Virus record (IMG/VR): IMGVR_UViG_3300029288_006769
Location: 346,367 to 410,366 of that record
DNA: 64,000 bases
Origin: a virus
Direction: 5' to 3' (one strand)
Shown here: piece after piece, positions 2,412-59,309 of the stretch
How positions within the stretch are numbered: the stretch's first letter is position 1
Layout of the letters: every line of letters begins with the position of its first letter
Notes under the pieces: generated by a model
Told to the model about the DNA's origin: nothing
Databases searched by the model: none
What the model saw: only the letters and a program-made list of their open reading frames with translations
Program-made: the position numbers and the translations under genes

Positions 2412-3432
2412 CAGTCGCCTCCGAATCATATCTATATAAAAAATTAAAACAAGACAAAATCTCATTACAAGTACAAGCAAATTTCATTTTATAGACACAT
2501 AATTCATCTACAATAGCAAAATCTAATTTGTTTTGTTGACAAAACTTTCTTGCGGCATCGAATTTTAAATGATTATTTTCAGTATCTATAAAAACACTTG
2601 GTTTTATTTCGATTAAAATGCAATTATTTTTAAGACAAATTAAAACATCAGGAACATAATTTCTTATATAATCTTTTAGATAAGGTATACGAATAGGTTC
2701 GACATAATAACCAATAACATCATCAAATTTTTCTAAAGATTCGAATACTTGTAATTCCAGACTTGATCTATAATAAAATTTTAAATTGTTCTTATGTGAT
2801 TTGAAAAACCCAGTTTTGTATTTTGAACGTTTATCTATTTTTTCTAACATTTTTGCTGAAGCAATTGAAATCTTTGATCTTGCTTCTAAAGTATGATGTT
2901 TGCCAAAAAAACCATTATTTTTTCCAGAATTAGCTTTACTTATTTTTTGCTTTGTATCATAAGAATGATAATAACCATTTTGTTCGGCAGTTTTCTTTCT
3001 TGTTTTTTTATTTTTTTCAATTGCATCTAGAGTTGGTTTTTTCCCAAACATCCAACTCCCAAATTTTCTATCTTTTGCTATTTTAGACATTTTCTTTGAG
3101 AATTTTAAAAGTCTTGTATCAGTTTCTTTTGTTAAACCCTTAGACCATGATACATGACCTTCGTGTTTTCTGCCCTTGTTACTTCTAGAAATAGCTTGAT
3201 TATGTTGAGTCGTATTAGATTTGTGTCTTCTTGCATGCCCTTTTATAAACTTTATTCCAAGTCTCATTTTCTCCCAAGAAATAATTTTCCCGCATCCGCA
3301 AAGACAATAACAAAAAGTTGATTCTAAAGTCTTTCTACAATTATCACAAAATTTTGTCCGATTTGAATTTGCTTGGAATTCATTAGAACATTTAGAGCAA
3401 ACTTTGCGAATTTTATTTTTTAGAACTCTCAT
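2383..3432 (-). CDS. Putative homing endonuclease, NUMOD3 repeats + TnsA-like PD-(D/E)xK domain
   Basis: HSYDTKQKISKANSG..FFGKHHTLEARSKIS NUMOD3-like repeats; YRSSLE..YVPDVL..IEIKP nuclease motifs. Confidence 0.75.
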   Translation of the reverse strand: MRVLKNKIRKVCSKCSNEFQANSNRTKFCDNCRKTLESTFCYCLCGCGKIISWEKMRLGIKFIKGHARRHKSNTTQHNQAISRSNKGRKHEGHVSWSKGLTKETDTRLLKFSKKMSKIAKDRKFGSWMFGKKPTLDAIEKNKKTRKKTAEQNGYYHSYDTKQKISKANSGKNNGFFGKHHTLEARSKISIASAKMLEKIDKRSKYKTGFFKSHKNNLKFYYRSSLELQVFESLEKFDDVIGYYVEPIRIPYLKDYIRNYVPDVLICLKNNCILIEIKPSVFIDTENNHLKFDAARKFCQQNKLDFAIVDELCVYKMKFACTCNEILSCFNFLYRYDSEATDVLYSSKIA

Positions 3433-3787
3433 TTTTGCTCTTCTTGATCTTTTCTTCCATTTGTTTTAATAAAGTATAATAAAGTTCCCCATCTGATTCT
3501 GCAAGATGGTCCAAGGCAATTCGCTTTGTTACATCTTCATCAGGTGTATGCTCTTTCTCTACTTCAATCCCCATTTTCAATTCATTTTGATCGACATCTT
3601 CTTCACTAATCCCTTTTTCATTTGCTCTCCCGCTTGTAAGAAATGTTACAAACTTTGTTGCAAGTTTATAAATTTCAGCTTCAACTTCATGCACATCATA
3701 ATCCTGAGCTTCTGCCCATGCATGCAGATCAGCATCTTTAGGGTTAGGATTAAGTTTTAGAAAAAATATTATGTCTTCTCTTAACAT
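3413..3787 (-). CDS. DUF5661-like phage protein
   Basis: ELKMGIEVEKEHT..IALDHLAE..YYTLLKQME motif. Confidence 0.65.
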   Translation of the reverse strand: MLREDIIFFLKLNPNPKDADLHAWAEAQDYDVHEVEAEIYKLATKFVTFLTSGRANEKGISEEDVDQNELKMGIEVEKEHTPDEDVTKRIALDHLAESDGELYYTLLKQMEEKIKKSKNESSKK

Positions 3788-42324: not shown

Positions 42325-42355
42325 AAGAACCTCCACTAACGTTAATAATGAAAAA

Positions 42356-42429
42356 TACCCCGTGCAGGACTCAAACCTGCGACCCTCTGCTTAGAAGGCA
42401 GATGCTCTATTCAACTGAGCTAACGGGGC
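42356..42429 (-). tRNA. tRNA-Arg(TCT)
   Basis: Cloverleaf, anticodon loop CTTCTAA; A19/T56 elbow variant. Confidence 0.9.
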
Positions 42430-42478
42430 AAAGTTTCATAAATTATATATCATACACATAATAAAAAGTAAATTAAAA

Positions 42479-42551
42479 AGCAGCAGACCGGGCTTGAACC
42501 GGCGACCTCTACCTTGGCAAGGTAATATTCTACCAACTGAACTACTGCTGC
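42479..42551 (-). tRNA. tRNA-Gly(GCC)
   Basis: Cloverleaf, loop TTGCCAA, U73. Confidence 0.92.
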
Positions 42552-42557
42552 ATATAA

Positions 42558-42634
42558 TGGTACCCTCGGCAAGACTTTAACTTGCGACTTTTCGGTTCGT
42601 AGCCGAATGCTCTATACGACTGAGCTACGAGGGC
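42558..42634 (-). tRNA. tRNA-Arg(ACG)
   Basis: Cloverleaf with CCA, loop CTACGAA; T19/A56 elbow variant. Confidence 0.88.
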
Positions 42635-43604
42635 ATAACTTTCTTTTAAAACAAGATTCTTTATAAAATTCTGGCATATATTTTTTCATCCAAGATGCTA
42701 CTTTTTGTTGTCTAATATTTAAAATTTTTGATGCCTGATCTACCCAACCAAATTTTAAAAAATCAATTTTGCTTATTTTAATAGCATTTATTTTTTCTTG
42801 AATTCTTTTTTCTTTGATTTGCAATCTTTTTTGTTTTTCTTCTAGAATTTTATCTTTAATAGTTTTAATGTCATTAATGTTATAATATCTGTCTTGTCGA
42901 TCGTCAATGTTTTTTATAAAAGTTAACAATTCTTGTTTTTCTTTATTAGAATTTTTACATACGTTCACCCAACAAACTCTATAAATCTTCCAACCAAGAG
43001 ATCTTAAATAAGCGTCTCTTTTTGCATCATGCTCGATATTTTCTTTTGAACGATAATGTTGTTGACCGTCAATTTCTATATCTAATTTCAAGTCAATAAT
43101 TGCAAAATCAAGAAAATATTTCCCGACATTGAGTTTTTCTTTTATTAGATATCTCTTGTTTAAACTCTCTAATTCGAAAAAATTAACAAAATATTTTTCT
43201 GGATAACTTCTTCTATTTGGGTCAGAATTTTTAAAACTCCAACCTTGATGTTCACCTTTTTTACATATCTCGATTTGAGCACGACTTATTTTCTTTTTAT
43301 GTTCATTAGAAAGTTTTATTTTCCTTTTTTTACAAGATTTAATGACATATTTAATAGATGTAATTTTGTAACCAAATTCTTTAATTTTAGGAATTGGGAC
43401 ACCATCTTCATATAATTTTTTGATCTGTTGAACAATAAATTCTGAAATTTGACATCTAGCCTCATGAATTTTCATACCTCGAAACGACTTACAACTTCTC
43501 CCGCATTTTTCGCATTTAAAAAAGTGGACGAAGGGACTTGAACCCTCAACAATCAGATTGGAAATCTGAGACTCTACCATTGAGCTACGTCCACAAAAAT
43601 TCAT
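42612..43604 (-). CDS. DUF559/Vsr-like endonuclease with N-terminal Zn finger (putative homing endonuclease)
   Basis: YFLDFA..IEIDGQQHY..DAKRDAYLRSLGWKIYRV; frame overlaps tRNA genes at both ends, start uncertain. Confidence 0.75.
   Translation of the reverse strand: MNFCGRSSMVESQISNLIVEGSSPFVHFFKCEKCGRSCKSFRGMKIHEARCQISEFIVQQIKKLYEDGVPIPKIKEFGYKITSIKYVIKSCKKRKIKLSNEHKKKISRAQIEICKKGEHQGWSFKNSDPNRRSYPEKYFVNFFELESLNKRYLIKEKLNVGKYFLDFAIIDLKLDIEIDGQQHYRSKENIEHDAKRDAYLRSLGWKIYRVCWVNVCKNSNKEKQELLTFIKNIDDRQDRYYNINDIKTIKDKILEEKQKRLQIKEKRIQEKINAIKISKIDFLKFGWVDQASKILNIRQQKVASWMKKYMPEFYKESCFKRKLCPRSSVV
43523..43594 (-). tRNA. tRNA-Gly(TCC)
   Basis: Cloverleaf, loop TTTCCAA, U73. Confidence 0.9.
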
Positions 43605-43676
43605 AGTCCGGGGCGGAGTCGAACCGCTGTCCTGAGATTGAGAATCTCAAATCCTAAACCACTAGACGACCGGACC
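43604..43676 (-). tRNA. tRNA-Glu(CTC)
   Basis: Cloverleaf, loop TTCTCAA. Confidence 0.88.
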
Positions 43677-43682
43677 AAAAAA

Positions 43683-43759
43683 TGGCTGGCGGGAAGGGAC
43701 TTGAACCCCCAACCTTCGGGTTAACGGCCCGACGCTACCGCCTGTTGAGCTACCCGCCA
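43683..43759 (-). tRNA. tRNA-Asn(GTT)
   Basis: Cloverleaf, G73-CCA, loop CCGTTAA (C33). Confidence 0.85.
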
Positions 43760-43851
43760 ATAAAATTAAATGCTCTACCTATCTCTGACTCTTTCCTTTT
43801 CAGACAGCCCTCAGGTTTAAAATCGTGTAGAGCAATTTCAAAGATCAAAAT

Positions 43852-43923
43852 CGGGACATAGGAGAATTGAACTCCTGTCTCCGGGTTGACAGCCCGGTGG
43901 CCTAACCACTAGACGAATGCCCC
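43852..43923 (-). tRNA. tRNA-Asp(GTC)
   Basis: Cloverleaf, loop CTGTCAA, G73. Confidence 0.9.
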
Positions 43924-43932
43924 ATAAAATTT

Positions 43933-44006
43933 TGGACCGTGTCGGGATTGAACCGACCAAAAAGCTGCTTGCAGGGCAGCTCCGCCCCCATTGACTGTTA
44001 CGGCCC
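43933..44006 (-). tRNA. tRNA-Ala(TGC), atypical D arm
   Basis: G3:U70 pair, A73, loop CCTGCAA (C33), canonical T arm. Confidence 0.75.
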
Positions 44007-44118
44007 TTAAAAAACTTTGAGCTATATGAGAGTCTTCTACTACCATTCCTGCCGGCTATATAGCTCAATAGCCTTGGGAAATGGTACCTGATTACTCAAG
44101 TTCTAAAAGTCTCTCTTT

Positions 44119-44376
44119 TTAAATATCTGTCAAAGAACTATCTCTGTTCTTTATTTCTTGCATTGAGAGACCATAAAGTCTCCTTTGATTACCACACATA
44201 GCACAAGAACAAAGTTTTGTCGTATTTCTTCTTCTTGCTGCTGCTAAATGAATAGCCTTCTCTCTTTCATTGGGATCTTTTATCCATCTGTAAGAATCCC
44301 AATAACCTGCTCCACGCCTTTTGCCCTTGGTATCTCCAATGACAAAACGTTCAAGCCTGTTTCCAGGGTGTGACAT
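44119..44376 (-). CDS. Small basic protein with CSCAMC motif
   Basis: Start MSHPGN at 44376 with AAGGAG RBS. Confidence 0.65.
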   Translation of the reverse strand: MSHPGNRLERFVIGDTKGKRRGAGYWDSYRWIKDPNEREKAIHLAAARRRNTTKLCSCAMCGNQRRLYGLSMQEIKNRDSSLTDI

Positions 44377-44447
44377 AATGACTCCTTTCCGCACTCTCTG
44401 GTGGAGTGCTATAGACTGGATGCCATTATGTCCTCCTTTCAATTTTA

Positions 44448-44521
44448 TGGGCCATGAGGGACTTGAACCCCCGGCCTTCTCGTTATGAGCGAGCTACTCT
44501 TACCAACTGAGTTAATGACCC
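44448..44521 (-). tRNA. tRNA-CAT (Ile2 or elongator Met)
   Basis: Cloverleaf, loop CTCATAA; G1-C72 paired, so not initiator. Confidence 0.85.
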
Positions 44522-44532
44522 GTATATTTCAA

Positions 44533-44606
44533 TAGGGGTGAGAGGGATTGAACCTCCGACCTTCTGCTTATCAGACAAACGCTCTTACCAACTGAGCTAC
44601 ACCCCT
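44533..44606 (-). tRNA. tRNA-Ile(GAT)
   Basis: Cloverleaf, loop CTGATAA. Confidence 0.92.
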
Positions 44607-44619
44607 GTAAATTTCAAAG

Positions 44620-44691
44620 TAGCCCCAAGGAGAATTGAACTCCTGCTATCAGGTTGAAAACCTGGTGTCCTTACCACTAGACCATGGGGCC
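44620..44691 (-). tRNA. tRNA-Glu(TTC)
   Basis: Cloverleaf, loop TTTTCAA. Confidence 0.88.
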
Positions 44692-44696
44692 AAAAA

Positions 44697-44772
44697 TGGA
44701 GCCAGCACCCGGGCTCAAACCGGGAGTCTTTCGATTACAAGTCGAATGCTTCATCAATTAAGCTATACTGGC
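44697..44772 (-). tRNA. tRNA-Thr(TGT)
   Basis: Cloverleaf with CCA, loop CTTGTAA; A19/T56 elbow variant. Confidence 0.88.
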
Positions 44773-46357: not shown

Positions 46358-47365
46358 ATGGATCGTACACAATTCAGAGAATCAGTCTTTAAGCGAGACA
46401 ATAACAAGTGTGTCATGTGTGGTGCTCCTGCTGTTGATGCTCACCATATTATTGATCGTTCTCTGTTCGAAGATGGTGGTTATCATCTTGATAATGGAGT
46501 AAGTCTTTGTGCTGAGCATCATATTGAAGCAGAAGAGACAAAGATTTCTTGCAGCAAATTAAGAGAAAAAGCTTGCATTACAAAAGTTTATCTCCCAGAT
46601 TATTTTGATTTTGAAGAACAATATGACCATTGGGGAAATATAGTAAACACAAATGGTACACGTCTAAAAGGTGAACTTTTTGAACAACCTAACGTGCAAA
46701 AAGCTTTAAAAGATTCTCTCCATTTATTTCTTCCTTATTTCAAATATCAGAAAACATTTCATCTTTCAAATTCTCCTGGGCTCCAGAAAAATGACAAGAA
46801 ACTCAGAGATGAATCAGCATTTCTTGGAAAAGAAATTGTTGGCACAATAAAGATGGATGGTGAAAACACCAATATGTATCCTGATTATATTCATGCTAGG
46901 TCAATTGATTCTGTCGGGCATGAGTCAAGAACATGGGTGAAAGCGTTGCATGGGAGTATTGCATATCAAATACCACAAGGATACAGGATTTGTGGAGAGA
47001 ATCTTTTTGCAAAACATTCAATTCATTATATGCATCTTACAAGCTTTTTCAATGTGTTCTCTATTTGGAATGACAAAAATGAAGCATTGTGTTGGGATGA
47101 AACAGTAGAGTATTGCGAGCTGCTTGATTTAACTACCGTTCCTGTTTTTTATCGAGGGATTTATGATCCAGAAGCAATTACGAAAGCCTTCGAAAAGTAT
47201 TGTAATGAGAGTAAAGATCTTGTCGAAGGTTATGTGATAAGAACTTCAGGGGTTATACATTTTTCTAAATTCAGAAAGAACGTAGCCAAATGGGTGAGAA
47301 AAGGCCACGTTCAAACTGAACATAATTGGATGCAACAAAAAGTAATACCGAATAAAATATCTTAA
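46358..47365 (+). CDS. HNH domain fused to RNA ligase (Rnl2-like nucleotidyltransferase)
   Basis: RD..KCVMCG..DAHHI..NGVSLC..HH (HNH); KTFHL..SPG, KMDGEN, CGEN, EGYVIR, AKWVR (ligase motifs). Confidence 0.82.
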   Translation: MDRTQFRESVFKRDNNKCVMCGAPAVDAHHIIDRSLFEDGGYHLDNGVSLCAEHHIEAEETKISCSKLREKACITKVYLPDYFDFEEQYDHWGNIVNTNGTRLKGELFEQPNVQKALKDSLHLFLPYFKYQKTFHLSNSPGLQKNDKKLRDESAFLGKEIVGTIKMDGENTNMYPDYIHARSIDSVGHESRTWVKALHGSIAYQIPQGYRICGENLFAKHSIHYMHLTSFFNVFSIWNDKNEALCWDETVEYCELLDLTTVPVFYRGIYDPEAITKAFEKYCNESKDLVEGYVIRTSGVIHFSKFRKNVAKWVRKGHVQTEHNWMQQKVIPNKIS

Positions 47366-51700: not shown

Positions 51701-52387
51701 AAAAGCTTCTTGGCATTGTCCTTTTGAGATATAAAGTCTAGCAAGTTTGAGTCTGTCCTCTATAGAAATATTGTTTACAGTTTTCAAATACAATAATGAA
51801 GAATCAGATTGACCAAGAGCCGCATAACATAATGAAAGACGGAGTGCAATTGCATCATCTTTTTTAAGTGAATATTGTTTCAATAAATAGGGAATAGCTT
51901 GTTTATACAATTTTCTTTCATAGTAAATTGTGCCCAATGCTTCTTTAGCTTCTTTTGTTGTTCTAATTTTTTCGAACCATTTTTGGGCCTCATCATACCT
52001 TCTAATTTTGTAACAGATACTAGCATGTTGAAGTTTGTAACTTTCAGTAATTGAGTCTTTTTGTACGCATTTAGAAGAGAATTCATAAGCTCTTTCGCAA
52101 AGACCGATTTTACAATAGACTCTAGCAAGAGAAGTTAGAACAAGACAATTAGAAGGATAAAGTCTATATAAAGACAGATAGCAAGCAATTGCTTTTTCAT
52201 CAAAGCCGAGATTTTCATGTGCAAAACCATAAGCATAAGTAGTTTCTTCGTCTTGCACTTTATAGTTTGTCTCAATATATTTGATAACTTGCTTATAATC
52301 TTTTTTAAAAAGAAGACCATCAAGTTTCTTGTCGGCAAAACTTGCAATAGCGACTAAGAAAATCAAGAAAAATTTTAATGTTTTCAT
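48788..52387 (-). CDS. Large TPR-repeat protein with signal peptide
   Basis: Start MKTLKFFLIFLVAIASFA (Sec signal) at 52387 with GGAGG RBS; TPR-like helical repeats throughout. Confidence 0.85.
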   Translation of the reverse strand: MKTLKFFLIFLVAIASFADKKLDGLLFKKDYKQVIKYIETNYKVQDEETTYAYGFAHENLGFDEKAIACYLSLYRLYPSNCLVLTSLARVYCKIGLCERAYEFSSKCVQKDSITESYKLQHASICYKIRRYDEAQKWFEKIRTTKEAKEALGTIYYERKLYKQAIPYLLKQYSLKKDDAIALRLSLCYAALGQSDSSLLYLKTVNNISIEDRLKLARLYISKGQCQEAFVEYNKLQVQSFQYEDLTNQGKCLEEQKNISRALAFYEAATKKADAKQALQLKLKIAKIYMNLKDYVSVLKYVKEFEVLNAGLEYNRLIAQYYATTNDYAKIELYANKVLRVDSSAIPMYFLLIDAYEKQNYKTKAKKIAVRLSKQKDTPENALQLGDYYYENKNYDKAQKYYEKTYIFRENFDVLERIAICAFKQQDYDKAKDASETLLRKGAASNKCREIIYKIALDKKKYQKAIEQLEILVKFTPSLEQYKDLAVCYRETNRKEQLFVIDTKIVELDSKDIESRERLANSYYATEKNAQALKHYYELEKLRVFNVTDYFKIVTLLGKAKDNQNSIVYLKKILNLDAQNVDAHKKLADVYFKLKDYDNAYLEYNKTMTLAYSRIDYLKNFSYVVIIKKNVSEIIRICNRALVTKQADSLVIISLANTYYDMGSYTKALNVYNKLQQEKITAPIILKIAICQERTGAISNAIASYEQYVNLVQTAKNEYFNLAALYLKQGKKDLEMSTYKSYLAKYKNDKLSLKVGVYSYEKEDYKSAVKYFALANIIGNADQSFIYGRALFMTKEYDNAISILTMCTKFNSYSRIAEVYRLIAVSHENLKNIEKAIKFYKLYCQINTRDSTYFYHMGRLQEQLHVNLAKDIYVANTKRFYYDYRNYERLSGIYFKLGDYKRAQYNFEKTKALKDTISVDMLSKLAYCYKQNGNRVLEIKTYKEILGRDSKNFNANKELGIYCYEVGELHESLAYLRMAKAQNNSDPDMLYILGKIYLKDAYSSEGFEFLQTAKQQKSKDTTIRLYLIDSYKRFSKYNEAKNETEQLLAINRSFTNLDIYAKILYQLKDYAGAENIAVEMRKKEPQDINLMMFLAQIKIEQGNLDDALEYCKMVSYVDSRYAPAICKRADIYMLKKDNETAREYYNKAISIDPKYAMSYYGLGMICKFNGEIKTYTEYITKAVALDSTNTIIAEELKRTK

Positions 52388-52609
52388 ATTCCCTCCCATT
52401 GTTATGGGCAGCAAAAAAACATCCAGAACAACTTTTGAATTAATCAATGTTCCAGAAATCGTCAAGTTAATTTAATTTTGATAGGAAGGAATTTAATTGA
52501 GAGTAAATCAAATCTATCTAACCAACAAATATCTACCCTTATCCTTATATTATAGATTATACCACCTTATTGGTTTAAAATGAAAATAAAAAATATTTTT
52601 TAAAAATAA

Positions 52610-52639
52610 TTGTTACTTTTGCTAACTTTGATATATATT
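52610..52639 (+). promoter_or_regulatory. Possible sigma70-type promoter for the ncRNA array
   Basis: TTGTTA-18 nt-TATATT, ending 7 nt before unit 1. Confidence 0.35.
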
Positions 52640-52646
52640 TATTCTA

Positions 52647-52787
52647 GAACAAATGCTCTTTAACAGCAAGTGCTTACATTACTTTGTAGCTCAGCTGGTA
52701 GAGCGATTGCCTATTAAGCGATAAGTCTCAGGTTCGAATCCTGAAAAAGTAGCCAAAAACTAGCATTTACAACTCGAGCATTTGTTC
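52647..52787 (+). ncRNA. Scaffolded tRNA-like RNA unit 1 (Y RNA-like); normal-order Asn-like domain, ATT anticodon
   Basis: 12 bp outer stem GAACAAATGCTC/GAGCATTTGTTC; scaffold TTTAAC..GTGCTTACAT / TAGCAT..AACTC; 76 nt cloverleaf 52680-52755 ending GCCA. Confidence 0.8.
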
Positions 52788-52809
52788 ATTTCAAATTGAA
52801 AATAAATTT

Positions 52810-52966
52810 TTAAAACTGCTCTTTAACATCGGGTGCTTACATGGATATAACTTTAGTTCACCAAACCGAAGTTTGACGTTCGATTCGTCATTCCCCCGCT
52901 AAGAAAATATGTGTTTTCTTGGTGGGGGAAAGTAAAAAATAGCATACGTAACTCGAGCAGTTTTAA
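52810..52966 (+). ncRNA. Scaffolded tRNA-like RNA unit 2; permuted, opened in the D arm
   Basis: 12 bp outer stem TTAAAACTGCTC/GAGCAGTTTTAA; order: D 3' half, anticodon-like arm, T arm (TGACG-TTCGATT-CGTCA), acceptor closed by a long hairpin. Confidence 0.75.
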
Positions 52967-52979
52967 TTTTGAAAAATAA

Positions 52980-53115
52980 ACAAGTGTTCTTTAACTCTAA
53001 GTGCTTACATGCTTTTAAGCTCAATTGGTAGAGCAATTGTTATTGGAACAATTCGTTCTTGGTTCAAATCCAGGAAAAGCGACCAAAAAATAGCATTTAT
53101 AACTCGAACACTTGT
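52980..53115 (+). ncRNA. Scaffolded tRNA-like RNA unit 3; normal-order domain, TTG at anticodon position
   Basis: 10 bp outer stem ACAAGTGTTC/GAACACTTGT; 76 nt cloverleaf 53010-53085 ending ACCA. Confidence 0.8.
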
Positions 53116-53134
53116 CTTTTAAATAAGGAAAAAA

Positions 53135-53285
53135 TAAGTCATGTCTTTTAACCTTGGAAGCTTACATTTTTTTCGTCAGTTCAAATCTGACTGCTCCACC
53201 GGCGGTGGAGTATGGCCGAGTGGTTTAAGGCACCCAACTGCTAATTGGACAAAGAAAACAGCTCTCAGAACTCAGACATGACTTA
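53135..53285 (+). ncRNA. Scaffolded tRNA-like RNA unit 4; permuted tRNA-Ser(GCT), opened at the variable arm
   Basis: 12 bp outer stem TAAGTCATGTCT/AGACATGACTTA; order: T arm, loop-closed acceptor, D arm GCCGAGTGGTTTAAGGC, anticodon loop CTGCTAA. Confidence 0.8.
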
Positions 53286-53307
53286 AATTTTAAAATTCAC
53301 GATGAAG

Positions 53308-53343
53308 AAGAGGGCTCAATCAAAAGAGCCCTCTTTTGTTTTT
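53308..53343 (+). terminator. Rho-independent terminator closing the ncRNA array
   Basis: AAGAGGGCTC-AATCAAAA-GAGCCCTCTT followed by TTGTTTTT. Confidence 0.8.
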
Positions 53344-53413
53344 AGCATTATTTTTAGAATTTTACAAGTTAAAATATAGAAATAGAGCAACAAGCAAAAG
53401 AAAGGAATGAACT

Positions 53414-53665
53414 ATGTCAACGATCCATGTTGTTTACGGCGGAAGAAATGAAGATCTTGAGTTTGACGAAGTGTTCAGACCAGATAGACATGAAGCTCTG
53501 GGAGTAACAAATCCTGAACCAAGAAATATGACACCAGAAATTGTAAAACGAGCTTTAGCAAATCATTATGATGTGAATCAAAATGAATTTGAAGCTCATT
53601 TTGTCGAAATCAACTCGAACGGAAATATCACCGTACGTCCCAATGCGAGATGGGGAGGTCATTAA
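53414..53665 (+). CDS. Ubiquitin-like (beta-grasp) protein
   Basis: 83 aa ending NITVRPNARWGG-H; same operon as JAB and ThiF. Confidence 0.7.
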   Translation: MSTIHVVYGGRNEDLEFDEVFRPDRHEALGVTNPEPRNMTPEIVKRALANHYDVNQNEFEAHFVEINSNGNITVRPNARWGGH

Positions 53666-53666
53666 A

Positions 53667-55217
53667 ATGACAACTATGGTAAAAAAAGAACAAGACATCA
53701 GGGTTAAAATCCTCAACTCATTTATGACCTGTCCTCATCGAGACACGGGTGAATTGCAAAAAATTCATGCAGAAATGAGAGAGAAAGATCCTGTGTTCTA
53801 TGCACATCTTGCTGCATGGTACAAAAAGAATGGTGATCTTCGTGATCATAATGAAGTTTTCACAGCCATGTTGATCACAGATCCTTTCTTGGACAATCGC
53901 GAAACAGGTATTGCTCTTTTTCAAAATCAAGCTCCCTTTATGAAAATCAAAATTCTCAGTTTCATTAAAGGGAAGAAAATCACTCTGAGGGAAAAGACGG
54001 GTGAACAAGTCAAACGCGGAAAGAAAATGATTGATGAGATCAAAAATTCTAAGAAACAAGTTGGTCTTATCAAAAATATCCCAAACATACTTCGAACTGA
54101 AATCGAAAGATATGTTCGTTGGCTTGAAAAAGACAATGATAGATTTGATTCTGTTGCTCTGACAAATTTCAATGATTTGAAATCTTTTTATGCAGGTAAA
54201 GGTGTTCAGATCAAACCTTGTCCAAGAGCACAACAAATCCTGTTTGAAGAAAAATTTCCTGAAGATAGCAAACTTACTGTTTTCAAACAAATCAGAGAAG
54301 CTGATACGCCTGAGAAAGCAGCCAATCTGATGGTGCAACATAAAATTCCTTACACTATTGCAGTAGGTTTGAGAGATAAAATTACGCCATCTATTTTGAT
54401 TGCTTTGATCAATAACATGACTGCTCAGGAAATTATTACAAACATTGCTTCTTTGCAAGAAAAAGGTGCAATGGATAATCCTGGAACAAAAAAATTGATC
54501 ACAGAAAAACTTGAAGCAGCAAAAACAGCAAAGAATGTAACTGCTCTCAAATCCAAAAGAGCTAAGCAGACAGGAAGAGTCAAAGACGAAACTGTTCTCA
54601 AGCAGTTGGATGAAATTGCTGATAAGCAAATCAAAAAATCTGGGTCAATCAAAGTTTCTACTGGGTTGCTCATTGACAGATCAGGTTCTATGGATGTTGC
54701 AATTCAAGTTGGAAAACAGATTGCTGCAACAATTTGTGGTTCAATGGAAGCTGATTTGTTCGGTGTCGCATTTGATACTATGGCACAAGCTGTTAAAGCA
54801 AGTGAAAATACATTAACTGCTTGGGAAAAAGCATTTGCGCCAATCCATGCAAGCGGTAGAACTTCAGTTGGTTGTGCTCTTGATTTCATGATCAGGTATA
54901 AATTATATGCTGAACAGCTCATTATTGTGACTGATGAGGATGAAAACCAGAATCCACGATTTGCTGATGTATTTCCAAAGTATGTACAGGAAATGAAAGT
55001 AACTCCTGCAATTATTATCGTAAGAGTAGGTGACAAAAAAACTGGACTCAGTACTTCGCTTAAAAACGCAGGAATTTCTTTTGATTCATATGAACCATCA
55101 GGAAATGACTACTATGGACTTTCAGGTCTGATACCTTTGCTTTCTCGTAAATCAAAGTTAGACCTTGTTTATGAAATTATGGACTTTCCACTTCCGATTC
55201 GAAAGTCTTATGTCTAA
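53667..55217 (+). CDS. Ro60/TROVE-like helical domain plus C-terminal vWA
   Basis: vWA MIDAS IDRSGSM..GRTS..VTDEDEN; N-terminal DPVFYAHLAAWY..LRD and LINNMTAQEIITNIASL resemble TROVE segments; adjacent tRNA-like RNAs. Confidence 0.7.
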   Translation: MTTMVKKEQDIRVKILNSFMTCPHRDTGELQKIHAEMREKDPVFYAHLAAWYKKNGDLRDHNEVFTAMLITDPFLDNRETGIALFQNQAPFMKIKILSFIKGKKITLREKTGEQVKRGKKMIDEIKNSKKQVGLIKNIPNILRTEIERYVRWLEKDNDRFDSVALTNFNDLKSFYAGKGVQIKPCPRAQQILFEEKFPEDSKLTVFKQIREADTPEKAANLMVQHKIPYTIAVGLRDKITPSILIALINNMTAQEIITNIASLQEKGAMDNPGTKKLITEKLEAAKTAKNVTALKSKRAKQTGRVKDETVLKQLDEIADKQIKKSGSIKVSTGLLIDRSGSMDVAIQVGKQIAATICGSMEADLFGVAFDTMAQAVKASENTLTAWEKAFAPIHASGRTSVGCALDFMIRYKLYAEQLIIVTDEDENQNPRFADVFPKYVQEMKVTPAIIIVRVGDKKTGLSTSLKNAGISFDSYEPSGNDYYGLSGLIPLLSRKSKLDLVYEIMDFPLPIRKSYV

Positions 55218-56055
55218 TGTTTTTGATCTTATTAAAAAAGTAGGGGAGAAAGAAGCGGCTATTCAAGAGTTTATCTCCCCTATTTTTTTTAATGAATATG
55301 TAGCCACCAAGATCGAAGGCATTGTTTATAAATTCAAAATTTCGCAAAAAACTCCAGGTTGGTATAAAATACAATCCATAGACAGAAAGACAGCAAAAAC
55401 TGTCGAACAGGCTGATCTTTCTGATATCGATACTTATTTGAAGTTTCTAACCAAGATTCGTTTTATTCTTGTAATGAAAAAGAATAACGTTTATTTTGGT
55501 ATACCCGAAAAATCAAATAATTTAAAACTTCCATTTGAGCAAATGATCCCTGTGTATCTTACTGATGATTCAGTTCAAGATTTTGACAGAGTCATTGTGC
55601 GTTTTGATGGCGCAAATTTCTGGTACCATCAATTGGATTATTCAAATGACATTTCAAAGGCATCATATTTAAGAGAGAAATTGTTGAAAGTTGTCGATTC
55701 AAAGAAAATTAATTATTCGGGTTTGACAATCGAAGAAAAAATTGCTTATACTTTAAGAGTTACACTTGATAAAAAACTTGTAATTGACAAAAAGAAGACA
55801 TCTCTTAAAGATGATGTTGAACATGCTGGTGGCGAATTTATAAAATTTACGGAAAAAAGCGACCATTTCAGCGTAACTTATATTGTCGATGGACAACAAT
55901 ATACAAGCCATGTGAGTAAAAACGAAAGTCATAGCGTAATAACTGCTGGAATTTGTTTGTCTGGTGAAGATAGAAAATATGATTTAAAAAGTCTTATAAC
56001 AGTTATGAGAGAGGGTCAGCATGCAGGAAGAATCCATAGAACTCACAACTTTTAA
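55210..56055 (+). CDS. Conserved hypothetical protein, candidate divergent E2-like conjugating enzyme
   Basis: Single Cys, in the C-terminal AGICLSG..DLKSLITVMR, resembling the E2 GxICL active-site context; lies between Ubl/vWA and JAB. Confidence 0.45.
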   Translation: MSNVFDLIKKVGEKEAAIQEFISPIFFNEYVATKIEGIVYKFKISQKTPGWYKIQSIDRKTAKTVEQADLSDIDTYLKFLTKIRFILVMKKNNVYFGIPEKSNNLKLPFEQMIPVYLTDDSVQDFDRVIVRFDGANFWYHQLDYSNDISKASYLREKLLKVVDSKKINYSGLTIEEKIAYTLRVTLDKKLVIDKKKTSLKDDVEHAGGEFIKFTEKSDHFSVTYIVDGQQYTSHVSKNESHSVITAGICLSGEDRKYDLKSLITVMREGQHAGRIHRTHNF

Positions 56056-56434
56056 AGAAAGATGCTGGACATTATACGGTTTTAAAATTGGAAAATTTAT
56101 TTTCGGTTGGCTTAAATATTTGGATGAAGGTGAAGAGTTTGCTGTAGAATTTGATTGGCGAAAAGGTTTGTCAAAATTTATCATCGGGTGGTTTCATACC
56201 CATCCAACTACGGTTACTTTGAATCCAAGCAAAGAAGACAAAAAAACAATGCGTTCTTGGGTTAGAACTTTAGAACGCCCATTGATTTGTGGGATCATGT
56301 ATGACCATAAAAAAAGAAGAGAATTTCTTTGGAGAAATTGTTATTTATTTAAACGTTGGCCTGGCGGCAATGTGAACTACCAACCAATTATGAGAGATAA
56401 ACTAATCAAACATTTTTATATTGGAATTCTATGA
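56021..56434 (+). CDS. JAB/MPN metalloprotease
   Basis: IIGWFHTHP..PSKED (HxH-x7-S-x2-D). Confidence 0.85.
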   Translation: MQEESIELTTFKERCWTLYGFKIGKFIFGWLKYLDEGEEFAVEFDWRKGLSKFIIGWFHTHPTTVTLNPSKEDKKTMRSWVRTLERPLICGIMYDHKKRREFLWRNCYLFKRWPGGNVNYQPIMRDKLIKHFYIGIL

Positions 56435-56562
56435 AAAATAAAGGGTTCAAAAAAGAAACTCCTGAAGATGTTATTAACTGGCTTGCTTCTATGAAAATAA
56501 AGGTGCATTATTTAATAAAAAGCTCAGGAAAAAATTAGAAAAAAGAAAGAAAAAAATGAGCA

Positions 56563-56799
56563 TTGTCTAAATTTCCTTATAATGTCTATGCAACAAAAGA
56601 AAAAGTGTATATAGAAAAGAAAACAGGATGTGCAGCTCGCTTATGTTCTATATCTGCCGAATTTTATGACAGTAACGAAAAACAGGAAATAATTTTGGAA
56701 TGTTCATTTAAAAAATTCCAAGAGAAAGCTATGTCAAGAGGATATATAGTACTTGATAAATTCAGACCTGCATGGGATATTGAAAGAGAGATAAAATGA
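56563..56799 (+). CDS. Hypothetical protein
   Basis: 78 aa, coupled to ThiF start. Confidence 0.5.
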   Translation: MSKFPYNVYATKEKVYIEKKTGCAARLCSISAEFYDSNEKQEIILECSFKKFQEKAMSRGYIVLDKFRPAWDIEREIK

Positions 56800-57428
56800 G
56801 TACTTTCAAACATGAAGAACTATATCGGGAAAAAGTATTATTCGAAATGATGTCAAAATTTTCTATTACTATGTGTGGTGCTGGAGCTATAGGTTCTAAT
56901 CTTGTCGATAATTTGATCCGTCAAGGCTTCAAAAAAATTTCCGTAATAGATTTTGACAGAGTTGAAGATGGAAATAGACATACACAAATATGGAGCTCAA
57001 GAGAGATTGGACAGCTTAAAGTAACAGCATTAAGAAATAGAATGTTTGAAGTTCTCAATACGCAAATTACTGCAATTTCTAAAAAACTTGATAAATCAAA
57101 TCTTAATCTTATAGAGCCTTCAAGTTTAGTTATTGATGGCTTTGACAATGTACCAAGTAGAAAATTGATAACAGAATATTGTAAAGAAAATAACATTGAT
57201 TGTTTGCATATTGGTTTGTTCCAAGATTATGCTGAAATAATCTGGAACGAAAAATACAGAGTGCCTGATGAAGTAACTAATATGGATATATGTGAATATC
57301 CTTTAGCAAGGAATATAATTTTGTTGGCTATTGCTGTAGCGACAGAGATATTAATAGCATATTTAGAAACAGGTGAAAAGCGTAATTTCGTGATAACTTT
57401 AAAAGACTTCAAAATTTCGAGAATATAA
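56796..57428 (+). CDS. ThiF/E1-like adenylyltransferase
   Basis: CGAGAIGS, IDFDRVEDGNRHTQ, IGQLKV, IDGFDN..SR; candidate catalytic Cys in DICEYP. Confidence 0.88.
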   Translation: MSTFKHEELYREKVLFEMMSKFSITMCGAGAIGSNLVDNLIRQGFKKISVIDFDRVEDGNRHTQIWSSREIGQLKVTALRNRMFEVLNTQITAISKKLDKSNLNLIEPSSLVIDGFDNVPSRKLITEYCKENNIDCLHIGLFQDYAEIIWNEKYRVPDEVTNMDICEYPLARNIILLAIAVATEILIAYLETGEKRNFVITLKDFKISRI

Positions 57429-57940
57429 TGGATATTTGGTTCAATATGTTGATCGGTATTCCCGGTTCTGGGAAATCTACTTGGCTAAACATACAACCTC
57501 GAAAAACTTATGTTGTCTGTCCTGATTCAATACGATTATATTTAACTGGTGATATTTCAAATCATAGTCAAGAAGAGACTGTTTGGAATATTGCAAAATA
57601 CACAACACGTTGGGCTTTAGTAAATAATATTTCAATAACATTTGATGCAACTAACACAAGTACATTTTTAAGAAGAGACTTTCTTGGGGCTCTTCCTCTT
57701 CAAGTATCGGATTTTAAACGCAAAGCAATTCTTTTTCCTACAGACCCAAATGTGGCTGTTTCAAGAGTTAATGCTAGAACATTTGGCTCAAAAGTTCCAC
57801 CAGAAAAAATATTTCAATCACATCTATTGTTTCAGCAAACTTTGAAAGATATTTTAGATGAAGATTGGGACTGTATAGAAACGATAGGAGACTCAAATGG
57901 CGGAAAAACTGTTAAAATCCCGGAAAGTGTCAGGACCTGA
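57428..57940 (+). CDS. P-loop kinase, polynucleotide-kinase-like (AAA_33)
   Basis: LIGIPGSGKST, CPDSIR, FDATN..R, RVNAR..VP. Confidence 0.8.
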   Translation: MDIWFNMLIGIPGSGKSTWLNIQPRKTYVVCPDSIRLYLTGDISNHSQEETVWNIAKYTTRWALVNNISITFDATNTSTFLRRDFLGALPLQVSDFKRKAILFPTDPNVAVSRVNARTFGSKVPPEKIFQSHLLFQQTLKDILDEDWDCIETIGDSNGGKTVKIPESVRT

Positions 57941-59309
57941 AAACGATGGTTTTACAGAAACAGTAAAACATAAAGTTTTATTCTGCGGCAACCCTGAAGG
58001 AAACAACAACAAGTTCTATTCAATAGAGCTTCAAAAAAATTCTAAAGGTCAATATCGGTTATTTACTCATTATGGCCGTCTCGGAAAAACCGATGTTTAT
58101 GAAGTCCGCGATGAATACCTCGGTAGACCTCTCGATCTTTCAACAGCAGATCGTGAATTTGAAGTTATCCTCGCTTCAAAACTCAAAGGCAAGAAAAAAG
58201 AAAGCGAACTCGGTGGAAACCGTGTTGAAAAATATGAATTGGTCGAGACATTCGCACCCACGGTTGGCTCTGTCAATGTCCGCGGAAAAAATGTTGGCAT
58301 TACTGTTTCAGTCAAAAAAGATGATGTTGTTGACTCTTATTCCAATCCGGAAGTTGCTCGAATTATCCGTCAAATTGTCGATGAAAACATCCATACCATT
58401 TCTACATTGACAACCTTGAAACTAACATCAAATGGGTTTGAAACTCCCCTGGGTCCCGTCACAAAAGAACATGTGGCAAATGCAAGAGTCCCACTTATGT
58501 CTTTGAAATCTCTGATGGTTAATGACGAAATCAACCCCGACAATCAATTGACTCGAGATCACAATGCAAAATATTTCTCCATGATTCCCCATCCCTTTGG
58601 ACACAAAATAACAAAAGATGACTGGATTCTTTCTGCGGCAAAACTCGCCGAAGAATTCGAATTGCTTGACAACCTTGAATCAGCTGTTACAATGGGTGCC
58701 GCCATGCAAAATGCCGCACAACAAAAACGCGCTCTTGGTACAGATATCGAAATAGTTTCCGACAAAAGAGAAATTGATCGAATTTACTCCTATATTACGA
58801 CAACAAAAGCGGGAAATCATCGTGGTTCTGATGTGTGGAACTGGAAACCTAAAAACGTTTTCAAAATCAAAATACCTGCAGAAAGAGCAAGATTTGAAAA
58901 AACTGAAAAACAATTCGGTAACCAACATGAACTCTTCCATGGCTCAAAAAATGGCAATATTTTGAGTATTCTCAAGGGGGGTCTGATCATCCCTTCATGC
59001 AATGCCGGTCATGTCACAGGTCGTATGTTCGGTGATGGTATTTATTTTGCTAATGCATCGACGAAATCTCTTAATTACTCTACAGGATTTTGGGGCGGAC
59101 GTGGCAATAAAAATTCAAATTCTTTCTTATTTCTTGCAAATGTTGCTATGGGAAAAACATTTGTAGCCCATGACGCTCGGTATTCTGGAATACCACATGG
59201 ATATGACTCAATTCATGCTCAAAAAGGAAGATCGTTATATAATGACGAATTTATTGTTTTCAAATTGCAACAAGCCACTTTAACATATCTGGTTGAAATG
59301 ACCAAATAA
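57897..59309 (+). CDS. WGR-domain poly(ADP-ribose) polymerase
   Basis: NNNKFY..THYGRLG (WGR); YFSMIPH (regulatory); LFHGS, GRMFGDGIYFA, SLNY, NDEFIVF (H-Y-E triad). Confidence 0.9.
   Translation: MAEKLLKSRKVSGPENDGFTETVKHKVLFCGNPEGNNNKFYSIELQKNSKGQYRLFTHYGRLGKTDVYEVRDEYLGRPLDLSTADREFEVILASKLKGKKKESELGGNRVEKYELVETFAPTVGSVNVRGKNVGITVSVKKDDVVDSYSNPEVARIIRQIVDENIHTISTLTTLKLTSNGFETPLGPVTKEHVANARVPLMSLKSLMVNDEINPDNQLTRDHNAKYFSMIPHPFGHKITKDDWILSAAKLAEEFELLDNLESAVTMGAAMQNAAQQKRALGTDIEIVSDKREIDRIYSYITTTKAGNHRGSDVWNWKPKNVFKIKIPAERARFEKTEKQFGNQHELFHGSKNGNILSILKGGLIIPSCNAGHVTGRMFGDGIYFANASTKSLNYSTGFWGGRGNKNSNSFLFLANVAMGKTFVAHDARYSGIPHGYDSIHAQKGRSLYNDEFIVFKLQQATLTYLVEMTK

What the first reader, a model, noticed from the sequence alone, without database searches (positions are those of the whole stretch)
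52810..52966. Second permutation, opened in the D arm, with the acceptor capped by a long hairpin
The cargo starts ATGGATATAAC (D-loop/D-stem 3' half), then TTAGT-TCACCAA-ACCGA (anticodon-like arm), AGTT, T arm TGACG-TTCGATT-CGTCA and TTCCCCCGCTAAGAAAA-TATGTG-TTTTCTTGGTGGGGGAA (about 17 bp extended acceptor). With units 1 and 3 (attached via the acceptor end) and unit 4 (via the variable arm), three attachment geometries occur in one array. Inference: each unit exposes a different tRNA face, and the cargos were captured independently into a common scaffold.
Basis: partly seen in the sequence, partly recalled or inferred. Interest (0 to 1): 0.8.

Follow-up and report, generated by a model that had tools for sequence, protein, structure and literature searches.

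The report
Decayed D-loop-opened tRNA mimic, Y-like RNA
This is one of four small RNA genes in a huge phage that share a common stem "handle" and sit beside a Ro60-shaped protein gene; its head is a tRNA whose ends were sealed and reopened in the D loop, a topology I found in no paper I could search, but this copy has lost its D stem.

Summary
The unit folds far better than shuffles (z -7.3).

A covariance model was built from the cargos alone of five distant relatives. It aligns window 52842-52940 end to end (56 bits, E about 1e-12), the best hit in the 424-kb phage genome.

Thirteen such cargos form a class: capped acceptor, U8/A9, D stem, then the handle inserted in the D loop, G18G19, anticodon arm, variable region, T arm.
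- 96% of cells pair and 21 of 25 pairs show compensatory change.
- When re-permuted in silico, 7 of 8 intact members are called as tRNAs by ARAGORN.

The window's copy is not called. Compared with intact members it lacks six bases (U8, A9 and the 5' D strand), and its anticodon stem has an A.C mismatch. Three hairpins remain, kept by 8 compensatory pairs against the 74%-identity relatives.

The downstream 516-aa protein has no Pfam TROVE hit but folds as full-length Ro60.

Verdict: a Y-RNA-like tRNA mimic with a new opening point and a new handle, here in reduced form. Binding and function are untested.

Other agents of this scan have reported similar handle-plus-tRNA-mimic arrays beside Ro60-like genes in many other genomes.

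The parts
52610..52639 (+). Promoter-like site ahead of the four-unit array
   Evidence: The only sigma-70-like match in 52380-53420. This stretch is also conserved in L018 and L186. It is a consensus match only.
52812..52821 (+). Unit 2 outer (closing) stem, 5' strand AAAACTGCTC
   Evidence: Pairs with 52955-52964. The stem covaries between units 1-4. It is identical in L196 and L210.
52822..52827 (+). Conserved 5' internal-loop motif TTTAAC of the handle
   Evidence: Invariant in units 1-4. Variants of the Y-N-Y-A-A-C kind occur in about 100 units.
52830..52841 (+). Inner helix 5' strand CGGGTGCT plus the conserved TACA
   Evidence: Pairs with 52941-52948. GCTTACA is conserved in all units, including bacterial ones.
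52842..52847 (+). D-loop 3' part TGGATA (G18, G19 and A21 equivalents)
   Evidence: Aligns to TGGATA/TGGTTA of the intact members.
52848..52852 (+). Relic of the D-stem 3' strand (TAAC, where intact members have GAGC) plus position 26
   Evidence: Shown by the A5 alignment. Its partner strand is absent. In the MFE it pairs with the variable region instead.
52853..52869 (+). Anticodon-arm-derived hairpin TTAGT-TCACCAA-ACCGA (A.C mismatch)
   Evidence: Aligned to the anticodon arm of model R1. L237:2815-2928 has the same loop, TCACCAA. The MFE alternative is a 10-bp hairpin at 52849-52873.
52870..52873 (+). Variable-region equivalent AGTT
   Evidence: R1 alignment.
52874..52890 (+). T arm: 5-bp stem and loop TTCGATT
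   Evidence: 100% of cells pair and all five pairs covary in the class.
52891..52930 (+). Capped acceptor: TTCCCCC/GGGGGAA plus a 10-bp extension and the loop TATGTG
   Evidence: Covaries in the class and against L196/L210.
52931..52940 (+). AG (A14, G15 equivalents) and the A-rich linker TAAAAAAT
   Evidence: Identical to AGTAAAAAAT of L271. The six bases TAGCTC that precede it in L271 and L270 are missing here.
52941..52954 (+). Inner helix 3' strand AGCATACG and the conserved 3' loop TAACTC
52955..52964 (+). Outer stem 3' strand GAGCAGTTTT
52650..52784 (+). Unit 1: same handle, whole tRNA (anticodon ATT) with CCA
52981..53114 (+). Unit 3: same handle, whole tRNA (TTG, with A at position 33) with CCA
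53138..53282 (+). Unit 4: same handle in place of the variable arm of a permuted tRNA-Ser(GCT)
53306..53337 (+). Intrinsic-terminator-like hairpin that closes the array
53667..55217 (+). Gene for a 516-aa protein with a Ro60 fold (HEAT ring plus vWA), the presumed partner
   Evidence: AF2 model with pLDDT 84. Foldseek top 12 hits are all Ro60/TROVE, E 1e-11 to 3e-9, TM about 0.6. The MIDAS residues D337, S339 and S341 are invariant. There is no Pfam hit.

Best explanation
Unit 2 is a Y-RNA-like non-coding RNA made of two modules.

1. The handle. A closing stem is formed by the RNA's two ends, followed by a conserved internal loop (TTTAAC opposite TAACTC), a second helix and GCTTACA. All units of the array share this handle.
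2. The head. It descends from a tRNA whose acceptor end was sealed by a long hairpin and which was reopened in the D loop, where the handle is now inserted.

In intact relatives this topology keeps every tRNA stem and the elbow contacts. In this phage lineage a six-base loss removed U8, A9 and the 5' D strand. What remains is a three-hairpin head: an anticodon-derived hairpin, a canonical T arm with the GG of the D loop still beside it, and a 17-bp capped acceptor.

Shown: the sequence features, the homology to the class, the covariation, and the linkage to the Ro60-like gene.

Inferred:
- The array is made as one transcript.
- The handle is the binding site of the downstream Ro60-fold protein.
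- The tRNA-like head tethers or decoys a tRNA-recognising factor, as proposed for YrlA.
For: - Fold z-score -7.3.
- The handle is shared and covaries among units 1-4 and across about 100 units.
- Model R1 was built only from the cargos of five relatives whose Ro60-like proteins are 53-69% identical to the window's. It hits 52842-52940 full length at 56.1 bits, the top hit in the window and in the whole phage genome.
- Class of 13 cargos: 96.2% of cells pair against 39-52% when partners are slid, and 21 of 25 pairs show changes on both sides.
- Seven of 8 intact members are called as 76-77-nt tRNAs after re-permutation.
- Tertiary signals in the class: position 15 and position 48 read G:C six times, A:U once and U:A twice. 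Also, 9 of the 10 members with GG have TTC in the T loop, while none of the 3 members without GG does.
- Reduced subclass (window, L196, L210): 47 pairs, 8 of them compensatory, with an identical outer stem.
- The partner protein folds as Ro60. A profile search finds only the phiLo phage TROVE protein, weakly (E 0.07).
- Linkage: 120 strict units lie upstream on the same strand in 267 kb, against 3 downstream in 382 kb. The same handle sits beside bacterial homologues.
- Literature: Y RNAs are encoded beside Ro60 and carry tRNA-like domains (PMC4201824; bioRxiv 10.1101/312249).
Against: - There is no expression, processing or binding data.
- The handle lacks the GNCGAAN0-1G/CGAA motif that marks known Ro60-binding sites.
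- The protein is TROVE only by fold, not by Pfam.
- This copy has lost the D stem and has an A.C mismatch.
- The closest relative (85% protein identity, L280) has lost the unit altogether, so the unit is dispensable in at least one lineage.
- Alignment A5 was fitted to the model, which inflates pair counts somewhat. The independent MAFFT alignment A3 gives 96.8%.
Confidence: 0.72

Rival explanations
1. Unit 2 is a decaying relic. It was once an intact D-loop-opened module and is now non-functional and drifting towards loss.
For: The 5' D strand is deleted, and the 3' D strand has drifted from GAGC to TAAC. There is an A.C mismatch in the anticodon-derived stem. ARAGORN fails after re-permutation. 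The nearest relative, L280, keeps only the 3' end of this unit's handle and has an emptied unit 4. L211 and L291 carry a single unit, and L290 holds an empty handle beside a whole-tRNA unit.
Against: The three hairpins are kept by 8 compensatory pairs between the window and L196/L210. Those genomes' Ro60-like proteins are only 74% identical, yet the outer stem and loop motifs are 100% identical. The canonical T loop and the GG are both retained.
Confidence: 0.14
2. The handle is not a protein-binding Y stem. It is a processing signal, for example a double-strand-specific RNase site, that releases tRNAs and tRNA-like RNAs from a polycistronic transcript. Linkage to the Ro60-like gene would then be only operon neighbourhood.
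For: Units 1 and 3 are whole tRNAs with an encoded CCA flanked by the stem. A fifth unit lies in a tRNA cluster 220 kb from the Ro60-like gene. The handle has no CGAA motif.
Against: The internal-loop sequences are conserved from phages to Chloroflexota chromosomes, always beside the Ro60-like gene. This goes well beyond what a plain helix cut by a duplex-specific RNase would need. Capped, permuted and empty cargos could not yield tRNAs.
Confidence: 0.1
3. It is a permuted tRNA gene in the sense of Cyanidioschyzon. The handle would be excised, the D loop ligated (the phage encodes an RNA ligase and a kinase), and the acceptor cap trimmed to give a working tRNA.
For: Intact class members re-permute into full tRNAs. 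In three of them the acceptor 3' strand is followed by N-CCA. The window holds an RNA ligase at 46358-47365 and an AAA_33 kinase.
Against: This copy lacks U8, A9 and one D strand, so it cannot give a canonical tRNA. The cap continues the acceptor helix without a break, which makes a poor RNase P substrate (inference, supported by the RNase P discussion in PMC4201824). Anticodon loops in the class are 6-7 nt long and not conserved. No splicing endonuclease was seen.
Confidence: 0.03
4. This is a chance resemblance: only a T-arm-like hairpin is real.
For: Rfam's tRNA model gives no hit on this unit even at E up to 10.
Against: An independent cargo model matches full length at E about 1e-12. Homologues occupy the same array position in relatives. 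Fold z-score is -7.3.
Confidence: 0.01

Closest known systems
YrlA, the tRNA-like bacterial and phage Y RNA bound by Rsr/Ro60 (Chen et al. 2014, PMC4201824; Wang et al. 2018, bioRxiv 10.1101/312249)
   Same: It is encoded next to a Ro60-type gene on the same strand. The 5' and 3' ends form a long stem. The head is a circularly permuted tRNA with a canonical T arm and a loop-closed acceptor stem of variable length, and no free CCA.
   Different: YrlA is opened at the anticodon loop, so the anticodon stem runs into the Ro-binding stem, and it keeps an intact D stem-loop. Here the class is opened in the D loop and keeps a closed anticodon arm, and the window's copy has no D stem at all. The handle has no GNCGAAN0-1G motif. 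The partner protein is not recognised by Pfam TROVE. The RNAs come in arrays of 1 to about 8 units with several opening points.
Deinococcus radiodurans Yrn1 (Y RNA of the Rsr-PNPase RYPER complex)
   Same: It is a Y RNA whose tRNA-like part has a T arm, incomplete D features and a closed anticodon-like arm. Its orientation differs from YrlA (PMC4201824).
   Different: In Yrn1 the hairpin between the T and D parts takes the anticodon position, and there is no capped acceptor. Its Ro-binding helix resembles the metazoan one. It has no sequence relation to this handle.
Thermus phage phiLo Ro60 with Yrl1/Yrl2 (PMC12135203; PDB 9KOP, 9L5Y)
   Same: A phage-encoded Ro60 with Y-like RNAs encoded just upstream. 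These chains are among the top structural matches, and the only profile match, of the window's protein.
   Different: The phiLo RNAs were picked by their CGAA motif and stem-bulge-stem shape. They are not described as tRNA-derived or as permuted at different points.
Circularly permuted tRNA genes of Cyanidioschyzon merolae and some algae
   Same: The gene order is 3' half, intervening sequence, then 5' half. Opening points include the D loop region.
   Different: Those genes are processed through a circular intermediate into working tRNAs. Here the acceptor is closed by a long perfect helix, the opening carries a conserved structured handle, and the genes are linked to Ro60.
Bas63 gp130, a Ro60-like phage protein reported to counter the Ppl defence (bioRxiv 10.1101/2024.10.10.617714)
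   Same: A phage Ro60-fold protein next to tRNA-like genes that the authors suspected to be Y RNAs. It gives a precedent for an anti-defence role.
   Different: tblastn against GenBank phages found no detectable sequence relation (one search found only LR756511.1). No RNA partner was shown there.

Membership tests
Y RNA (Ro60-associated ncRNA, broad sense) | The 5' and 3' ends pair into a long stem that encloses a large loop or module | tested here: met
   A 10-bp outer stem plus an inner helix. It covaries among units and against relatives.
Y RNA (Ro60-associated ncRNA, broad sense) | Encoded within a few kb of a Ro60 gene, usually on the same strand | tested here: met
   The unit ends 703 nt upstream of a gene whose product folds as Ro60. 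Of 64 loci with at least 2 kb of upstream sequence, 44 have strict units upstream on the same strand.
Y RNA (Ro60-associated ncRNA, broad sense) | Conserved Ro60-binding motif (GGUCCGA in metazoa; GNCGAAN0-1G/CGAA near the 5' end in bacteria and phages) | tested here: not met
   The 5' strand of the handle reads CTCTTTAAC...GTGCTTACA. There is no Rfam Y-RNA hit on the unit even at E up to 10.
Y RNA (Ro60-associated ncRNA, broad sense) | Physically bound by Ro60 | not testable with these tools
   Needs immunoprecipitation or EMSA.
YrlA subfamily | T arm followed directly by a loop-closed acceptor stem | tested here: met
   52874-52890, then 52891-52930.
YrlA subfamily | An intact D stem-loop follows the acceptor stem | tested here: not met
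   In the class the D arm is split by the handle. In the window the 5' D strand is missing.
YrlA subfamily | The Y stem is continuous with the anticodon stem, with no anticodon loop | tested here: not met
   A closed anticodon-derived hairpin is present at 52853-52869, and the handle enters at the D loop.
tRNA (Rfam RF00005 / ARAGORN) | Full cloverleaf recognised by a tRNA model, directly or after re-permutation | tested here: not met
   No RF00005 hit on the unit. ARAGORN finds nothing in the re-permuted window copy, while 7 of 8 intact relatives are called.
D-loop-opened, acceptor-capped permuted-tRNA module (class defined here, model R1) | Full-length match to the cargo model: anticodon arm, variable region, T arm, acceptor N-TCCCCC/GGGGGA-N with an extension hairpin | tested here: met
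   56.1 bits, E 9e-13, model positions 1-108. The window was not used to build the model.
D-loop-opened, acceptor-capped permuted-tRNA module (class defined here, model R1) | A 4-bp D stem (GCUC/GAGC) closing the three-way junction, preceded by U8 and A9 | tested here: not met
   Deleted in the window, L196 and L210.
Ro60/TROVE protein (the presumed partner) | Sequence match to Pfam TROVE | tested here: not met
   No Pfam family even at E up to 10, apart from a chance hit. The A2 profile finds the phiLo TROVE protein only at E 0.074.
Ro60/TROVE protein (the presumed partner) | HEAT-repeat ring plus a C-terminal vWA domain with a MIDAS site | tested here: met
   Foldseek matches Ro60 chains over 514-590 alignment columns, E 1e-11 to 3e-9, TM 0.51-0.61. 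The DxSxS residues are invariant.

The most novel reading that the evidence does not exclude
The array is a 'tRNA display' system. One Ro60-like ring, working with the linked ubiquitin-like/E1/JAB genes, would load a set of handle-tagged tRNA mimics. Their different opening points (acceptor end, D loop, anticodon loop, position 26/27, variable arm) would each leave a different tRNA surface free. The particle could then decoy or capture several host tRNA-targeting defence nucleases or tRNA enzymes at once. The D-loop-opened class would be the version that shows an intact anticodon arm and acceptor-T arm while the elbow carries the handle.
Probability: 0.2. Interest if true: 0.85.

Novelty: new variant of a known kind. 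Interest (0 to 1): 0.62.

Why it matters
Known tRNA-like Y RNAs (YrlA) use one topology, opened at the anticodon loop, and their effector is still unknown.

This locus and its relatives show that the same idea, a handle plus a sealed and reopened tRNA, exists with at least five opening points. They come on a different handle, beside a Ro60 branch that sequence models miss, in huge phages and in bacterial chromosomes.

The D-loop-opened class is useful for two reasons:
- Its insertion site is the length-variable, solvent-exposed part of the D loop, so the whole L-shape can survive.
- It is the only topology in the window's own array that leaves both the anticodon arm and the acceptor-T arm closed, which limits what the head could be recognised by.

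Comparing intact and reduced copies, such as the one in this window, says which parts selection keeps: the T arm, the GG, the capped acceptor and one further hairpin. That gives concrete constructs for binding and structural work.

Tried and rejected
- Rfam at gathering and at E up to 10 gave only tRNA hits on whole-tRNA and acceptor-less units. No Y-RNA or YrlA family matched. A 17-bit Y_RNA hit on the minus strand at 52456-52527 lies outside the array and is chance (E 1.8).
- Pfam and a PDB sequence search on the 516-aa protein gave nothing. Only the fold search identified it.
- The first collection scans with the bare 5' motif were swamped by chance matches. Only L018 and L186 were real, so I switched to protein-guided loci.
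- My first own-genome pattern had the wrong gap length and found nothing. It was corrected.
- The automatic 'double the cargo and run ARAGORN' classification is rough. Junction positions 6-7 and 63-70 are artefacts of whole tRNAs, and its call for the window's unit 2 (tRNA-Gly with a filler) is an artefact. I use it only for the classes with junctions at positions 9-12, 21-29 and 38-44.
- A weak D stem in the window copy (GUAA/UAAC, 3 of 4 pairs) was considered and dropped. The alignment shows the true 5' strand is deleted.
- The closer relatives L211, L290, L291 and L280 were searched for more reduced copies, and none has this unit.
- The GenBank phage collection held one homologue, unannotated.
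- The Annual Review on bacterial Ro60 (PMC10870794) is not held in the library.

Full report
**What is in the sequence.** The window is part of a 424-kb IMG/VR virus record. Between a promoter-like site (52610-52639) and a terminator-like hairpin (53306-53337) lie four units. Each is closed by a covarying outer stem and shares the same inner elements: TTTAAC, a second helix, GCTTACA on the 5' side, and an A-rich linker, AGCA-type helix strand and AACTC on the 3' side. ARAGORN and Rfam call whole tRNAs with an encoded CCA inside units 1 and 3. Unit 4 is a tRNA-Ser(GCT) body in permuted order, with the handle where the long variable arm should be.

Unit 2, the finding, spans 52812-52964. The MFE structure has the closing stem, the inner helix and three hairpins. 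Its energy is -57.3 kcal/mol against -30.3 +/- 3.7 for dinucleotide shuffles.

**Relatives.** Motif scans of viral contigs were mostly noise but gave one syntenic array, L018/L186. The downstream 516-aa protein has hundreds of homologues. Using an alignment of 30 of them, I fetched 14 viral, 80 metagenomic and 11 genomic loci. A script looked for GC-N-TACA preceded by a 9-nt strand that pairs perfectly with a strand following ACT. It found about 100 distinct units. They lie overwhelmingly upstream of the protein gene on its strand: 120 units in 267 kb, against 3 downstream in 382 kb. The 38 on the other strand cluster in nine loci with a divergent arrangement. Arrays hold from one to about eight units.

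**The D-loop-opened class.** Five units from phages whose proteins are only 53-69% identical to the window's (L198, L212, L263, L271, L286) have the same cargo order as unit 2 but are clean. Their order is:
- (U)GG(A/U)UA, then GAGC, then N26;
- a 5-bp stem with a 6-7-nt loop;
- a 5-nt variable region;
- a T arm;
- N-UCCCCC, an extension hairpin of variable length, then GGGGGA-N;
- UA, GCUC, AG, and an A-rich linker.

This is a tRNA read from G18 round to R15, with the acceptor ends joined by a hairpin and the handle inserted in the length-variable part of the D loop. On the plain MAFFT alignment of these five cargos, 96.8% of cells pair and 12 of 25 pairs change on both sides, against 39-50% pairing when partners are slid.

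I built a covariance model from these five cargos only, without the handle and without the window. In the window its best hit is 52842-52940, full length, at 56.1 bits and E 9e-13. The next hits (37 bits and below) are junctions of adjacent ordinary tRNA genes, which is what a permuted-tRNA model should find. It is also the top hit in the whole phage genome.

Across the loci the model found three more clean members (L270, L237, L244), the two close relatives of the window's copy (L196, L210), and two members of a sister subclass. These are L286:1272-1381 and L237:2815-2928, and the latter has the window's loop TCACCAA. For the 13 cargos, 96.2% of cells pair and 21 of 25 pairs show compensatory change. 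This alignment was fitted to the model, so the figure leans towards the structure.

I then cut at the acceptor cap and joined the D loop in silico. ARAGORN of the 8 clean members as 76-77-nt tRNAs.

Tertiary signals agree with a tRNA fold. Position 15 and position 48 read G:C six times, A:U once and U:A twice. The three members without GG in the D-loop part are exactly those without TTC in the T loop.

**What the window's copy is.** Aligned to the class, the 3' side of the window's cargo reads GGGGGAA-AG-TAAAAAAT, where L271 reads GGGGGAG-TAGCTC-AG-TAAAAAAT. Six bases, equivalent to U8, A9 and the 5' D strand, are missing. The orphaned 3' strand has drifted from GAGC to TAAC. The model marks the D pairs non-canonical and one anticodon-stem pair is A.C. 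ARAGORN does not recognise the re-permuted sequence. In the MFE the relic strand pairs with the variable region, which lengthens the anticodon-derived hairpin to 10 bp with a 5-nt loop.

L196 and L210 (74% protein identity) are reduced further. Between them and the window, however, the T stem, the acceptor, its extension and the first hairpin are kept by 8 compensatory pairs, and the closing stem and loop motifs are identical. That argues for selection on a three-hairpin head.

Two things argue the other way. The nearest relative (L280, 85%) has lost units 1 and 2, keeping only the last bases of unit 2's handle, and has emptied unit 4. L211 and L291 carry a single unit, and L290 holds an empty handle beside a whole-tRNA unit. 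Single units are therefore dispensable.

**Other opening points.** The same handle carries several kinds of cargo:
- whole tRNAs joined at the acceptor end;
- tRNA bodies whose acceptor stem is replaced by the handle's inner helix (Rfam tRNA positions 7-64);
- cargos opened in the anticodon stem, as in YrlA (for example L208:2784, L240:1109, L284:2560);
- class II tRNAs opened at the variable arm (about 16 units, usually last in the array);
- in Chloroflexota chromosomes such as Dictyobacter alpinus, cargos opened between the D arm and the anticodon arm;
- short non-tRNA hairpins and empty handles.

A fifth unit of the window's own genome, a permuted tRNA-Leu(CAA) opened at the variable arm, lies in a tRNA cluster 220 kb away.

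**The partner.** The 516-aa protein has no Pfam or PDB sequence match. Its AlphaFold model (pLDDT 84, pTM 0.76) matches Ro60 chains from Xenopus, human, Deinococcus and Thermus phage phiLo over its whole length. Foldseek E-values are 1e-11 to 3e-9 and TM is about 0.6, and the twelve best hits are all Ro60. The family profile finds only the phiLo TROVE protein, weakly. The MIDAS residues of the vWA domain are invariant.

The operon also encodes:
- an 83-aa protein upstream of the Ro60-like gene;
- a conserved protein of about 290 aa (55% identical in L198);
- a JAB peptidase and a ThiF-type E1;
- here, an AAA_33 kinase and a WGR-PARP;
- in L270, an RlaP nucleotidyltransferase.

**Comparison with what is known.** YrlA RNAs are circularly permuted tRNA mimics with a closed acceptor, an intact D stem-loop and the Ro-binding stem continuing the anticodon stem. 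They carry a GNCGAAN0-1G motif (PMC4201824; bioRxiv 10.1101/312249). D. radiodurans Yrn1 has a different orientation. Phage Ro60 with Y-like RNAs is known from mycobacteriophages and from phiLo (PMC12135203). A Ro60-like protein of phage Bas63 was reported to counter the Ppl defence, with nearby tRNA genes suspected to be Y RNAs (bioRxiv 10.1101/2024.10.10.617714).

I found no description of a D-loop-opened module, of this handle, or of arrays that mix opening points. The library lacks most subscription journals, so this is not proof of absence. Other agents of this scan have already reported similar handle-plus-mimic arrays beside Ro60-like genes in many other genomes. The system as a whole is therefore not new to the scan. 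What is added here is the D-loop class, its covariation, and the decayed state of this copy.

**Mechanism.** Three things are shown: a modular RNA with a conserved handle, a tRNA-derived head, and tight linkage to a Ro60-fold gene. By analogy with Y RNAs I infer that the handle binds the ring protein and that the head recruits or decoys a tRNA-recognising factor. I put handle binding at about 0.6 and a decoy or tether role at about 0.3. The phage context (tRNA clusters, an RNA ligase, a kinase, a PARP) suggests a conflict over tRNA integrity. Nothing tested here says which factor is involved.

Noticed in passing
L001:1353-1529 (minus strand) = G000:C1:179634-179810: A fifth copy of the handle lies 220 kb from the Ro60-like gene, inside a tRNA cluster. 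Its cargo is a permuted tRNA-Leu(CAA) opened at the variable arm, with a roughly 33-nt insertion in the acceptor cap. An ordinary tRNA-Leu(CAA) gene lies next to it.
   Followed up: partly
window 53414-59309: The operon after the array encodes an 83-aa protein (weak DUF4170 hit), the Ro60-fold protein, a conserved roughly 290-aa protein with no family, a JAB peptidase, a ThiF-type E1, an AAA_33 kinase and a WGR-PARP. The roughly 290-aa protein, JAB and ThiF recur in L198 and L270, and RlaP replaces kinase and PARP in L270.
   Followed up: partly
L280:3840-4130: The closest relative (85% protein identity) keeps only the last bases of unit 2's handle just after the promoter. It also has a mutated unit 3 and an empty unit 4 handle. 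L290:860-960 has another empty handle. The arrays turn over quickly.
   Followed up: partly
L294:3080-3260 (Dictyobacter alpinus chromosome), L302:2900-3120 and 3270-3440: Bacterial homologues of the Ro60-like gene (36-41% identity) are preceded by RNAs with the same GCTTACA ... ACTCG handle. The cargo has an anticodon-like hairpin, T arm, capped acceptor and an intact D arm, so it is opened at position 26/27. This is a further geometry.
   Followed up: partly
window 52680-52755 and 53010-53085: The whole tRNAs in units 1 and 3 have odd anticodon loops: CTATTAA with A34, and TATTGGA with A at position 33. Both are followed by CCA and then the A-rich linker of the handle.
   Followed up: no
L214:452-546, L230:873-966, L264:23-117, L218:2787-2918: Some units carry no tRNA part but two short hairpins, one with a recurring GCCGGGCC-loop-GGCCCGGC-like stem. 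This is a separate cargo class.
   Followed up: no
window 42355-44772 (minus strand) and 46358-47365: Eleven ordinary tRNA genes lie in two clusters, and there is a gene with an HNH domain fused to an RNA ligase domain (PF09414). Together with the kinase these could form a tRNA repair set.
   Followed up: no
A5 alignment (13 cargos from L198, L212, L237, L244, L263, L270, L271, L286, L196, L210 and the window): In the arrays that hold a D-loop-opened unit, a class II tRNA opened at the variable arm is usually the last unit before the protein operon. The array order therefore seems conserved across distant phages.
   Followed up: partly
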